Shown one piece after another: positions 1 to 851 of a stretch of DNA of 851 nt. The translations under genes were made by a program, and so were the position numbers. Source of the stretch: a phage; the sequence record AB218928.1; one strand, given 5' to 3'. The first letter of the stretch is position 1; each line of letters starts with the position of its first letter. The notes below the pieces were generated by a model. It was not told the origin of the DNA, searched no databases, and was given only the letters and a program-made list of their open reading frames with translations.

Positions 1-25
1 TTCGAGCTCGGTACCCGGGCGCGCC
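1..25. other. Cloning-vector polylinker, 5' half: SacI GAGCTC 4-9, KpnI GGTACC 10-15, SmaI CCCGGG 14-19, AscI GGCGCGCC 18-25
   Basis: Overlapping restriction sites read directly in the sequence, in the order of a pUC19-lineage multiple cloning site with an added AscI site. A native genome would not pack these together this way. Confidence 0.9.
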
Positions 26-77
26 GCTTCACTTAGCGAATGCATTAGCCTTAATCAACCAACGCCTGAAAAGGTAA
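26..77 (+). CDS. Putative 3' end of the levivirus maturation (A) protein gene, partial with 5' end cut at the insert boundary; reading frame uncertain
   Basis: In leviviruses the maturation gene lies directly upstream of coat. The frame starting at 27 stays open to a TAA at 75-77, leaving a 16-nt spacer before the coat ATG. The frame starting at 28 stops at TAG 34-36. The frame starting at 26 runs through the coat start. A fragment this short does not let me pick the frame with confidence. Confidence 0.3.
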
Positions 78-81
78 TTAT

Positions 82-85
82 GGAG
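82..85 (+). promoter_or_regulatory. Shine-Dalgarno-like GGAG for the coat gene, 8 nt upstream of the ATG at 94
   Basis: GGAG at 82-85 with the coat ATG at 94-96. Spacing is appropriate for an E. coli ribosome binding site. Confidence 0.6.
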
Positions 86-93
86 TTAGCCAT

Positions 94-486
94 ATGGCAA
101 CTTTACGCAGTTTCGTACTCGTCGATAATGGCGGTACGGGGGATGTTACTGTCGTTCCTGTTAGCAATGCCAACGGCGTCGCTGAGTGGCTTTCTAATAA
201 CTCGCGCAGCCAAGCTTATCGCGTGACTGCCAGTTATCGTGCGTCAGGCGCGGACAAGCGCAAATACACCATCAAACTTGAAGTACCGAAAATCGTTACA
301 CAAGTTGTAAACGGTGTCGAGCTGCCTGTCTCCGCATGGAAGGCTTACGCCTCTATTGACCTGACCATCCCTATCTTTGCCGCAACCGACGATGTGACCG
401 TTATTTCCAAGTCACTTGCCGGCCTGTTCAAAGTTGGGAACCCTATCGCCGATGCTATCTCTTCGCAGAGTGGCTTCTACGCGTAA
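94..486 (+). CDS. cp: ssRNA coliphage coat (capsid) protein, 129 aa after Met removal, GA-like (group II levivirus)
   Basis: Complete 130-codon ORF ending at TAA 484-486. The translation MATLRSFVLVDNGGTGDVTVVPVSNANGVAEW...NPIADAISSQSGFYA matches my recollection of the phage GA coat protein almost residue for residue. It is also clearly homologous to MS2 coat (shared FVLVDNGGTGDVTV, NGVAEW, SRSQAY, RKYTIK-EVPK, GVELP, ELTIPIF/DLTIPIF and GNPI motifs). Confidence 0.95.
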   Translation: MATLRSFVLVDNGGTGDVTVVPVSNANGVAEWLSNNSRSQAYRVTASYRASGADKRKYTIKLEVPKIVTQVVNGVELPVSAWKAYASIDLTIPIFAATDDVTVISKSLAGLFKVGNPIADAISSQSGFYA

Positions 487-677
487 TGGGTCTGAAAGCA
501 AAACATAAGGAAAACCTATGTTCCGATTCACAGAGATCGAAAAGACTCTATGTATGGATCGCACTCGCGATTGTGCTGTCCGATTTCACGTCTATCTTCA
601 GTCATTGGATTTGGGGTCTTCTGATCCTCATTCTCCGGACTTTGATGGACTTGCCTACCTTCGTGATGAATGTCTAA
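486..677 (+). CDS. L: Levivirus lysis protein (L), 63 aa, single transmembrane helix; overlaps the coat stop and the replicase start in the +1 frame
   Basis: ORF from ATG 486-488 to TAA 675-677. The ATG shares its A with the coat stop (TAATG). The product has a basic N-terminal part (KAKHKENLCSDSQRSKR) followed by a hydrophobic stretch (LYVWIALAIVLSDFTSIFSHWIWGLLILIL) containing a Leu-Ser dipeptide (VLSDFTS, compare MS2 L FLSKFTN). Position, length and architecture match the L gene of GA/MS2-type phages. Confidence 0.85.
   Translation: MGLKAKHKENLCSDSQRSKRLYVWIALAIVLSDFTSIFSHWIWGLLILILRTLMDLPTFVMNV
503..521 (+). promoter_or_regulatory. Translational operator hairpin (coat-protein binding site) spanning the replicase start codon
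   Basis: ACATAAGGAAAACCTATGT folds as a 5-bp lower stem (ACAUA/UAUGU), a bulged A, a 2-bp upper stem (GG/CC) and a 4-nt AAAA loop. This is the same geometry as the MS2 operator ACAUGAGGAUUACCCAUGU, with the A-rich loop I recall for GA. The replicase AUG (518-520) and an AGGA Shine-Dalgarno-like element (508-511) lie inside the hairpin. Confidence 0.85.
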
Positions 678-808
678 CTAAACATCCTTCACTTGGGGAC
701 AGTAATTCGGACGCACGCCGTAAGGAATTGGCATATGCCAAACTTATGGATAGTGATCAAAGATGCAAAATCCAAAACAGTAACGGATACGACTACTCTC
801 ATATCGAG
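518..808 (+). CDS. rep: RNA-dependent RNA polymerase (replicase beta subunit), N-terminal 97 codons only; 3' end cut at the insert/polylinker junction
   Basis: ATG 518-520 in the operator hairpin opens a frame that stays open to the end of the window. The translation MFRFTEIEKTLCMDRTRDCAVRFHVYLQSLDLGSSDPHSPDFDGLAYLRDECLTKHPSLGDSNSDARRKELAYAKL... parallels the MS2 replicase N-terminus (DPHSDDF..AYLRDE.LTKHP.LG). Phage-derived sequence ends at about 808, just before the PacI site. The ORF track omits it because there is no in-window stop codon. Confidence 0.9.
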
Positions 809-851
809 TTAATTAAGTCTAGAGTCGACTGTTTAAACCTGCAGGCATGCA
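809..851. other. Cloning-vector polylinker, 3' half: PacI TTAATTAA 809-816, XbaI TCTAGA 818-823, SalI GTCGAC 824-829, PmeI GTTTAAAC 831-838, SbfI/PstI CCTGCAGG 838-845, SphI GCATGC 845-850
   Basis: Contiguous run of restriction sites read directly in the sequence, in pUC19 order (XbaI-SalI-PstI-SphI) with added PacI, PmeI and SbfI sites. This is typical of an expanded pUC-derived MCS. Confidence 0.9.

What the first reader, a model, noticed from the sequence alone, without database searches (positions are those of the whole stretch)
484..677. Lysis gene embedded in the +1 frame, with its start overlapping the coat stop (TAATG)
The 63-aa ORF begins at an ATG sharing one nucleotide with the coat TAA and ends 157 nt into the replicase gene, so part of this region encodes two proteins in different frames. 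The UAAUG overlap suggests coupling to coat translation by termination-reinitiation; I see no strong independent Shine-Dalgarno element just upstream of 486. The product has the basic N-terminus, single TM helix and Leu-Ser dipeptide typical of MS2-type L proteins. If the plasmid transcribes this strand, the clone could be toxic or lytic to its E. coli host.
Basis: partly seen in the sequence, partly recalled or inferred. Interest (0 to 1): 0.5.

Follow-up and report, generated by a model that had tools for sequence, protein, structure and literature searches.

The report
Phage GA-type lysis gene, already known
The 63-codon reading frame is the well-known lysis gene of a GA/BZ13-type RNA coliphage, sitting in a cloned cDNA fragment and translated only by ribosomes that have just finished the coat gene at the shared UAAUG; it is real but ordinary.

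Summary
Observation confirmed and interpretation supported, but everything is already known. Window 26-808 is a cDNA fragment of a group II levivirus (Emesvirus japonicum, GA/BZ13; 96.9% to BZ13 DL20, 96.6% to GA) between cloning-vector polylinker ends. Coat is 94-486, TAATG is 484-488, and the 63-aa ORF is 486-677. Replicase starts at 518, so the overlap is 157 nt of sense codons (+1 to replicase, +2 to coat). GA's 1986 record annotates a lysis CDS at the same position with the same one-base overlap. The product is 100% identical to the annotated BZ13 DL20 lysis protein, 98% to KU1 Sgl and 40% to MS2 L. It passes Pfam PF11125's cutoff and has the basic N-terminus, hydrophobic stretch and aligned Leu-Ser. 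The L start has no Shine-Dalgarno above background. Published experiments on GA itself show lysis-gene translation depends strictly on coat-translating ribosomes reinitiating at UAAUG (about 25% do). The KU1 homologue lyses E. coli without blocking peptidoglycan synthesis. Caveats: ORF length alone is not beyond chance (about 40% in controls), "single TM" is only consistent, the molecular target of L is unknown, and the insert probably lies antisense to the vector's lac promoter.

The parts
1..25 (.). Vector polylinker, left end (SacI 4, KpnI 10, SmaI 14, AscI 18)
   Evidence: Restriction-site scan. The phage match begins at 26.
26..77 (+). 3' end of the maturation (A) protein gene, stop TAA at 75-77
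   Evidence: The GA maturation CDS ends at record position 1308, which is window 77. Translation ends ...NQRLKR*.
83..86 (+). Coat Shine-Dalgarno (GGAG), 7 nt before the coat ATG
   Evidence: Anti-SD duplex -5.9 kcal/mol.
94..486 (+). Coat protein gene (130 aa), the upstream ORF whose terminating ribosomes feed the lysis gene
   Evidence: ORF list. Pfam Levi_coat E 1.7e-39. Annotated coat CDS in GA, BZ13 and KU1.
452..476 (+). Stem-loop near the 3' end of the coat gene, annotated in the GA record as 'pot. function in lysis gene control'
   Evidence: GA misc_feature 1683-1707. Folds at -7.2 kcal/mol. No compensatory changes among 6 sequences, so its function is unproven.
484..488 (+). TAATG junction: coat stop TAA (484-486) sharing its last A with the lysis ATG (486-488)
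   Evidence: Sequence. Same junction in GA, DL20 and DL10. Experimentally characterised coupling site in GA (PMC9955659).
486..677 (+). Lysis gene L / Sgl (63 aa). Domain 1 (basic): aa 1-20 = 486-545. Domain 2 (hydrophobic): aa 21-30 = 546-575. Leu-Ser: aa 31-32 = 576-581. Domain 4: aa 33-63 = 582-674. Stop: 675-677.
502..522 (+). Translational operator hairpin (coat-protein binding site) holding the replicase SD (AAGGA, 507-511) and ATG (518-520). It lies inside L codons 6-13.
   Evidence: GA misc_feature 1733-1753 'pot. binding site coat protein'. Folds as a hairpin at -4.2 kcal/mol. Invariant in all 6 sequences.
518..808 (+). First 97 codons of the replicase gene, cut at the PacI site. Codons 1-53 (518-676) overlap the lysis gene.
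   Evidence: Pfam RNA_replicase_B E 2.6e-23. Annotated replicase CDS in relatives. The frame runs on into the polylinker.
809..851 (.). Vector polylinker, right end (PacI 809, XbaI 818, SalI 824, PmeI 831, SbfI/PstI 838, SphI 845)
   Evidence: Restriction-site scan. The phage match ends at 808.

Best explanation
Window 486-677 is the lysis gene (L, a 'single-gene lysis' protein, Sgl) of a group II F-specific RNA coliphage of the GA/BZ13 type, carried on a cloned cDNA fragment. How it works in the phage, or in any sense transcript: ribosomes load at the coat Shine-Dalgarno, translate coat and terminate at UAA 484-486. They are released by RRF, and a fraction rebind the AUG that shares the A of that stop and translate L in another frame (about a quarter in GA reporter fusions). 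Free ribosomes cannot start there because L has no Shine-Dalgarno. L output is therefore a fixed, small fraction of coat output. The 63-aa product has a short basic N-terminus, then a long hydrophobic helix with a conserved Leu-Ser. By homology with MS2 L and KU1 Sgl, it inserts in the inner membrane, probably oligomerises, and triggers envelope lesions and autolysis without blocking peptidoglycan synthesis (type II Sgl). Its direct molecular target is unknown. What is shown: gene identity, junction anatomy, absence of an SD, and the conservation signature (here); coupling in GA and lysis by the KU1 homologue (literature). What is inferred: that this allele behaves the same way, and the membrane mechanism. 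In this particular plasmid the gene is probably a silent passenger.
For: The insert is 96.9% identical to BZ13 DL20 and 96.6% to GA. The GA, BZ13 and KU1 records annotate a lysis CDS at the homologous position, and GA, DL20 and DL10 have the same one-base stop/start overlap. The protein is 100% identical to DL20 L, 98% to KU1, 95% to GA and 40% to MS2 L, with invariant L31-S32. Pfam PF11125 scores 30.6 bits against a cutoff of 25, and PHROG 8450 gives E 1.8e-32. The SD at L equals background, while the coat and replicase starts have clear SDs. Dual-coding signature: variable columns are 16.7% in the coat-only region against 5.7% in the overlap (Fisher p = 5e-4). Replicase synonymous divergence is 0-0.07 in the overlap against 0.12-0.27 downstream, and variable third positions are 4/53 against 35/139, p = 0.008. 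Literature: in GA the lysis gene is read exclusively by ribosomes that finished coat, through UAAUG. Mutating the upstream start or the AUG abolishes expression, and 24.7% of upstream ribosomes reinitiate (PMC9955659 and its ref. 39). KU1 Sgl in pBAD24 lyses E. coli while mDAP incorporation continues, which makes it type II (PMC10614894). MS2 L oligomerises in membranes through its TM domain (PMC10688784). AF2 predicts one helix over 4-62, with pLDDT 86-93 across residues 21-60. Only one low-energy TM candidate is found.
Against: ORF length alone is not significant (about 40% in two null models). The conservation tests rest on only 5-6 closely related, non-independent genomes. RNA-structure constraints in the same region (operator hairpin) also lower variation. 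No expression or lysis data exist for this exact allele or clone. TM status was judged only from hydrophobicity scales (KD 1.77; a Hessa-type sum of +2.6 kcal/mol, marginal but equal to MS2 L) and a single-sequence AF2 model. The lysis mechanism of L-type proteins is unresolved in the literature.
Confidence: 0.93

Rival explanations
1. The 63-codon frame is a chance open frame inside the replicase and intercistronic region and encodes nothing.
For: ORFs this long arise in about 40% of synonymous resamplings and shuffles.
Against: Pfam and PHROG family matches. 40% identity to MS2 L with an aligned LS motif. The ORF is intact and annotated in all five relatives. Synonymous variation of replicase is suppressed in the overlap. 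The KU1 homologue is lytic.
Confidence: 0.01
2. L is a real gene, but it is initiated independently by free ribosomes once coat translation melts a masking RNA structure. On this view there is no termination-reinitiation at UAAUG.
For: The predicted fold pairs GGGU 488-491 with ACCC 440-443 and includes the stem-loop 452-476 that the GA record flags for lysis control. The fold is kept in KU1 despite its 18-nt insertion.
Against: The SD is no better than background. GA deletion and substitution analyses found no sequence allowing lysis-gene expression independent of coat translation. In reporter fusions, expression was lost when the upstream ORF's start was removed and when the junction AUG was changed to AUA (PMC9955659). 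The structure has z of only -2.0 and no compensatory pairs.
Confidence: 0.03
3. The product is a type I 'protein antibiotic' Sgl that inhibits a lipid II pathway step (for example MurJ, as PP7 Sgl does despite its L-like domain layout), rather than an L-type (type II) lysis protein.
For: The four-domain/LS layout does not guarantee type II behaviour, because PP7 Sgl has it and targets MurJ.
Against: Unlike PP7 Sgl, this protein has real sequence homology to MS2 L. The 98%-identical KU1 Sgl does not stop mDAP incorporation and gives type II morphology. Its multicopy suppressor profile is complex like that of MS2 L, with no single target.
Confidence: 0.04
4. This rivals only the 'toxic clone' clause. 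In this plasmid the lysis gene is a silent passenger, because the phage-sense strand is not transcribed at a meaningful level.
For: The window has no promoter-like site above chance, and none upstream of coat. The polylinker order SacI-KpnI-SmaI-AscI...PacI-XbaI-SalI-PmeI-SbfI-SphI is that of pNEB193/pUC19 read from EcoRI to HindIII. In pUC vectors that direction is antisense to Plac-lacZalpha (from memory). The minus-strand frame matching pUC lacZalpha stops inside the insert. pNEB193 has PacI and PmeI in a blue/white polylinker (PMC1874603).
Against: The vector backbone is not in the window. Searches for the polylinker in plasmid, genome and metagenome collections found nothing, so orientation relative to a promoter rests on memory. 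Read-through transcription in high-copy vectors is possible.
Confidence: 0.6

Closest known systems
Lysis protein of Escherichia phage BZ13 strain DL20 (ACT66727.1, FJ483839)
   Same: 100% identical 63-aa protein, with the same TAATG junction and the same position relative to coat and replicase.
   Different: One synonymous base difference within the gene (position 674). The surrounding insert differs at 24 positions, including a private coat N17D.
Putative lysis protein of phage GA (CAA27498.1, X03869; Inokuchi et al. 1986) and its UAAUG coat-lysis coupling (Inokuchi et al. 2000; PMC9955659)
   Same: Same gene and same junction. The sequence is identical over window 466-530. This is the system in which SD-less termination-reinitiation was demonstrated.
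   Different: Three amino-acid differences (Q16E, I49Y, R51Q going from window to GA; 95% identity).
Sgl of phage KU1 (AAF67675.1), a tested type II Sgl
   Same: 98% identical protein. It is lytic from pBAD24 and does not block PG synthesis.
   Different: KU1 (and BZ13 T72) have an 18-nt insertion that splits the UAAUG. The stop and start are then 17 nt apart, the start codon is UUG, there is one extra residue, and the coat stop sits in the loop of a 7-bp hairpin.
MS2 L protein (Pfam PF11125; YP_009640126.1)
   Same: Homologous (40% identity). It shares the basic N-terminus, the LYV.I.LAI.LS.FT core and the aligned Leu-Ser. It lies in an alternative frame across the coat-replicase boundary and is translationally coupled to coat.
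   Different: MS2 L is 75 aa with a 17-residue longer N-terminal domain, the part that confers DnaJ dependence. Its start lies 50 nt inside the coat gene (1678 against a coat end of 1727) rather than on the stop codon.

Membership tests
MS2-type L / L-like (type II) single-gene lysis proteins (Pfam PF11125) | Sequence match to the family profile above the curated cutoff | tested here: met
   PF11125 30.6 bits against a cutoff of 25, E 3.3e-7, residues 6-53. 40% identity to MS2 L.
MS2-type L / L-like (type II) single-gene lysis proteins (Pfam PF11125) | Domain 1: positively charged N-terminus of variable length | tested here: met
   Residues 1-20 have 6 K/R + 1 H against 2 D/E. Domain definition as given in PMC10229422.
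MS2-type L / L-like (type II) single-gene lysis proteins (Pfam PF11125) | Domains 2 and 3: a hydrophobic stretch immediately followed by the conserved Leu-Ser dipeptide | tested here: met
   LYVWIALAIV (21-30, KD 2.75 over 21-31), then L31-S32, aligned to MS2 L48-S49 and invariant in 7 sequences.
MS2-type L / L-like (type II) single-gene lysis proteins (Pfam PF11125) | Gene in an alternative frame spanning the coat-replicase boundary | tested here: met
   ORF 486-677 against coat 94-486 and replicase from 518. Same layout annotated in GA, BZ13, KU1 and MS2.
MS2-type L / L-like (type II) single-gene lysis proteins (Pfam PF11125) | Membrane protein with one transmembrane helix | tested here: inconclusive
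   The best 19-residue KD window is 1.77 (above 1.6). There is one candidate segment by a Hessa-type sum (+2.6 kcal/mol, the same as MS2 L), and the second-best non-overlapping segment scores +11. AF2 single-sequence gives one helix over 4-62. No dedicated TM predictor or topology data were available.
MS2-type L / L-like (type II) single-gene lysis proteins (Pfam PF11125) | Expression alone causes lysis without halting net peptidoglycan synthesis | not testable with these tools
   Shown for the 98%-identical KU1 Sgl (PMC10614894). Not shown for this allele.
SD-less termination-reinitiation coupling at an overlapping stop/start (GA coat-lysis UAAUG) | The stop of the upstream ORF overlaps the start of the downstream ORF | tested here: met
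   TAATG at 484-488.
SD-less termination-reinitiation coupling at an overlapping stop/start (GA coat-lysis UAAUG) | No functional Shine-Dalgarno for the downstream ORF | tested here: met
   Best duplex -2.7 kcal/mol at spacing 11, the 49th percentile of all window positions. Coat gives -5.9 and replicase -6.2.
SD-less termination-reinitiation coupling at an overlapping stop/start (GA coat-lysis UAAUG) | Downstream translation strictly depends on translation and termination of the upstream ORF | not testable with these tools
   Demonstrated for GA with lacZ fusions (PMC9955659 and its ref. 39). The window is identical to GA over 466-530.
Type I Sgl ('protein antibiotics': Qbeta A2, phiX174 E, Sgl-M, Sgl-PP7) | Blocks a lipid II pathway enzyme, so net PG synthesis stops before lysis and septal blebs form | not testable with these tools
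   The literature on the KU1 homologue shows the opposite (type II) behaviour. There is no sequence similarity to type I Sgls in the Pfam or PHROG hits.

The most novel reading that the evidence does not exclude
In group II phages the coat-protein operator hairpin (502-522) begins only 16 nt 3' of the L start codon, inside L codons 6-13. In MS2 the L start is about 68 nt upstream of the operator. A coat dimer bound to the operator could therefore sterically hinder the ribosome that tries to reinitiate at UAAUG, or be displaced by it. Coat concentration would then tune lysis timing and replicase repression through a single hairpin. The published GA reporter constructs appear to carry an altered operator region (sequence in the Fig. 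4 legend), so this seems untested.
Probability: 0.12. Interest if true: 0.35.

Novelty: already known. Interest (0 to 1): 0.08.

Why it matters
It matters little beyond correct annotation. The element is the GA/BZ13 lysis gene, sequenced and annotated in 1986, and its UAAUG junction is a published model system for ribosome recycling and translational coupling. Two practical points follow. A sense-strand transcript of this insert would make coat and, through coupling, a lytic peptide, so expression constructs need tight control or an L knockout. The still-open question for the whole family, the molecular target of L-type proteins, is not advanced by this window.

Tried and rejected
(1) Statistical significance from ORF length was rejected. 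Both null models give about 40%. (2) The RNA structure masking the L start has a modest z-score (-2.0 for the window, -2.9 for KU1) and 0 compensatory pairs among 6 sequences, so I do not claim it as functional. (3) Vector identification with data failed. There was no match in PLSDB, genome contigs or metagenome contigs, so the pNEB193/pUC orientation argument rests on memory. (4) Chamakura et al. 2017 (PMC5775895) and Inokuchi et al. 2000 (PMC313962) are not held in the library. Their content is cited only as summarised in PMC10614894, PMC10229422 and PMC9955659. (5) No solved structure of a relative was found, only a chance-level TM-peptide hit at E 0.21. (6) I did not run the large protein-database searches, because a 100% identical annotated protein was already in hand. 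(7) Promoter and terminator scans gave nothing above shuffles. (8) The other small ORFs in the window (for example 80-226 and 550-624) were not pursued. They have no SD of note and no annotation in relatives.

Full report
WHAT THE WINDOW IS. The 851-base window has polylinker ends: SacI, KpnI, SmaI and AscI at 4-25, and PacI, XbaI, SalI, PmeI, SbfI/PstI and SphI at 809-851. Bases 26-808 match group II F-specific RNA coliphages (Emesvirus japonicum). Identity is 96.9% to BZ13 strain DL20, 96.6% to GA, 96.5% to BZ13 DL10, 90.5% to BZ13 T72 and 88.8% to KU1. There is no match in the plasmid collection. The insert therefore holds the last 17 codons of the maturation gene (26-77), the coat gene (94-486), the intercistronic region with the replicase operator, and the first 97 codons of replicase (518-808), which is cut at the PacI site.

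CHECK OF THE OBSERVATION. TAATG is at 484-488. The coat stop is TAA 484-486, and the 63-codon ORF runs from ATG 486 to TAA 675-677. The replicase ATG is at 518. The ORF shares 157 nt of sense codons with replicase, or 160 nt counting its stop. The frame is +1 relative to replicase and +2 relative to coat. The best anti-Shine-Dalgarno pairing in the 22 nt upstream of 486 is -2.7 kcal/mol at a spacing of 11 nt, which is the median for all positions in the window. The coat start has -5.9 (GGAG, spacing 7) and the replicase start -6.2 (AAGGA, spacing 5).

One caveat applies. The length of the ORF is not evidence by itself. In 40% of synonymous resamplings of replicase codons 1-53 the frame stays open, and 40% of shuffles of the insert give an ATG-ORF of at least 63 aa somewhere.

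WHY IT IS NEVERTHELESS A GENE. There are four lines of evidence.

(a) Annotation of relatives. The GA record (X03869, Inokuchi et al. 1986) has 'put. lysis protein' at 1717-1908 and coat at 1325-1717, the same one-base overlap. BZ13 DL20 and DL10 have the same arrangement. KU1 and T72 have the same gene after an 18-nt insertion.

(b) Protein identity. The product is 100% identical to DL20 L, 98% to KU1, 97% to DL10, 95% to GA and T72, and 40% to MS2 L. The invariant columns include the core L-Y-V-x-I-x-L-A-I-x-L-S-x-F-T.

(c) Family profiles. Pfam PF11125 (Phage_MS2_lysis) scores 30.6 bits against a gathering score of 25, E 3.3e-7. PHROG 8450 gives E 1.8e-32, and that family carries no functional label in PHROGs.

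(d) Evolutionary signature of dual coding. Across the six sequences, variable columns fall from 16.7% in the coat-only region to 3.1% in the L-only stretch and 5.7% in the L/replicase overlap, with 10.7% in the replicase-only part of the window. Fisher p is 5e-4 for coat-only against the overlap. With 192 replicase codons from five genomes, pairwise synonymous divergence is 0-0.07 in the overlap against 0.12-0.27 just downstream. Variable third positions are 4/53 against 35/139 (p = 0.008). These tests use few, related genomes, and the operator hairpin also constrains part of the region, so they are supporting rather than decisive.

HOW IT IS TRANSLATED. It is the published mechanism for this very junction. 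[quoted passage not shown] It summarises the authors' earlier EMBO J 2000 paper as follows. The lysis gene is translated strictly by ribosomes that translated coat, and deletion and substitution analyses found no sequence allowing independent expression. In the reporter fusions, expression was lost when the upstream start was changed to AUU and when the junction AUG was changed to AUA. With active RRF, 24.7% of upstream ribosomes read the downstream frame from the AUG. The window is base-for-base identical to GA from 466 to 530, so the inference carries over directly.

A stem-loop at 452-476 is flagged in the GA record as having a possible role in lysis-gene control. A predicted helix pairs ACCC 440-443 with GGGU 488-491. 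The same closing helix is predicted in KU1 despite its insertion. However, there are no compensatory substitutions and the z-scores are modest, so I treat a structural contribution as unproven.

WHAT THE PRODUCT DOES. The protein has the four-part layout defined for L-like Sgls (as described in PMC10229422, and PMC10614894):
- a cationic N-terminus (residues 1-20; 6 K/R against 2 D/E);
- a hydrophobic stretch (21-30);
- Leu31-Ser32, aligned with MS2 L48-S49;
- a variable, largely hydrophobic C-terminal part (33-63).

The hydrophobic region spans about 21-54. The best 19-residue Kyte-Doolittle window is 1.77. A Hessa-type sum (scale values recalled from memory) gives one candidate segment at +2.6 kcal/mol, the same as for MS2 L, and no second candidate. 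A single-sequence AlphaFold model is one continuous helix over 4-62, with mean pLDDT 79 and highest confidence over 21-60. 'Single TM helix' is thus consistent with the data but was not tested with a dedicated predictor.

On function, the 98%-identical KU1 Sgl, cloned alone in pBAD24, lyses E. coli while 3H-mDAP incorporation continues until lysis, and it gives many small unstable blebs. That is type II behaviour, like MS2 L (PMC10614894). Its multicopy-suppressor profile is complex and involves envelope-homeostasis genes, with no single target (PMC10229422). MS2 L inserts into membranes and oligomerises through its TM domain, and its lesions begin at the outer membrane (PMC10688784). The direct target and mechanism of L-type proteins remain unknown. 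DnaJ dependence of MS2 L maps to its N-terminal domain. That domain is 17 residues shorter and not conserved here, so DnaJ dependence is an open point for group II. No relative has a solved structure.

THE 'TOXIC CLONE' CLAUSE. A sense transcript covering 72-677 would carry the coat SD, the coat gene and the coupled L gene, so it should be lytic. The window itself has no promoter-like site above the shuffled expectation, and none upstream of coat. The order of polylinker sites is that of pNEB193, a pUC19 derivative, read from EcoRI towards HindIII. In pUC vectors the lac promoter reads the other way (from memory). The minus-strand frame that corresponds to pUC lacZalpha runs into a stop inside the insert. 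I could only partly support the vector identification with data: pNEB193 has PacI and PmeI in a blue/white polylinker (PMC1874603), while searches for the polylinker in plasmid, genome and metagenome collections found nothing. My estimate is that the gene is a silent passenger in this clone (about 0.6).

COMPARISON WITH WHAT IS KNOWN, AND NOVELTY. This is the GA/BZ13 lysis gene and the GA UAAUG coupling site, both already described and in part experimentally dissected. The only things peculiar to the window are strain-level substitutions. The L protein equals that of DL20. Coat carries a private N17D (A142G) relative to all five relatives. The natural KU1/T72 variant is a useful contrast. It has an 18-nt insertion, the stop sits in the loop of a 7-bp hairpin, and the UUG start lies 17 nt downstream. 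It shows that the exact overlap is not obligatory in this lineage.

MOST NOVEL READING NOT EXCLUDED. The operator hairpin starts 16 nt after the L AUG, much closer than in MS2. Coat dimers on the operator might therefore interfere with reinitiation at L, or be displaced by it. The published reporter constructs seem to have this region altered. I give this about 0.12 probability and modest interest.

VERDICT. Observation confirmed, interpretation supported, already known, low interest.

Noticed in passing
window 502-522: The replicase translational operator hairpin (coat-protein binding site, holding the replicase SD and ATG) lies inside L codons 6-13, only 16 nt 3' of the L start codon. In MS2 the L start is about 68 nt upstream of the operator. 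Possible interplay between coat binding and L reinitiation seems untested.
   Followed up: partly
L003 (KU1) 757-779 and L005 (BZ13 T72) 758-780; corresponds to window 486/487: An 18-nt insertion directly after the coat TAA splits the TAATG. The lysis start becomes TTG, 17 nt downstream. The insert pairs with the coat 3' end to form a 7-bp hairpin, CUACGCC-UAA-GGCGUAG, with the stop codon in its loop.
   Followed up: partly
window 1-25 and 809-851: Polylinker ends (SacI, KpnI, SmaI, AscI ... PacI, XbaI, SalI, PmeI, SbfI, SphI) look like pNEB193, with the insert cloned AscI-PacI. The phage-sense strand appears antisense to the pUC lac promoter (orientation from memory). No database match was found for the polylinker.
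   Followed up: partly
window 142 (coat codon 17): A-to-G change giving coat N17D, private to this clone relative to GA, BZ13 DL10, DL20 and T72, and KU1. There are several further private synonymous changes in coat (210, 300, 330, 381, 417). It could be a distinct isolate or a cloning or RT-PCR mutation.
   Followed up: no
window 440-491: A predicted long-range helix, ACCC (440-443) with GGGU (488-491), encloses the stem-loop 452-476 that the GA record flags for lysis control and places the codon after the L AUG in a stem. z = -2.0, with no compensatory changes among 6 sequences.
   Followed up: yes
window 518-851: The truncated replicase frame (97 codons) reads on through the polylinker (…HIELIKSRVDCLNLQAC) with no stop inside the window, so a sense transcript would make a replicase-fragment fusion peptide.
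   Followed up: no
window 80-226: A 48-aa ATG ORF in another frame overlaps the coat start. It has a weak SD (-3.9 kcal/mol), no annotation in relatives, and variable bases at 78-81 in T72 and KU1. It is most likely chance.
   Followed up: no
window 91-96 and 212-217: The NdeI site (CATATG) at the coat start codon is native to GA-type phages, not engineered, since there is no difference from GA there. A HindIII site lies inside coat.
   Followed up: yes
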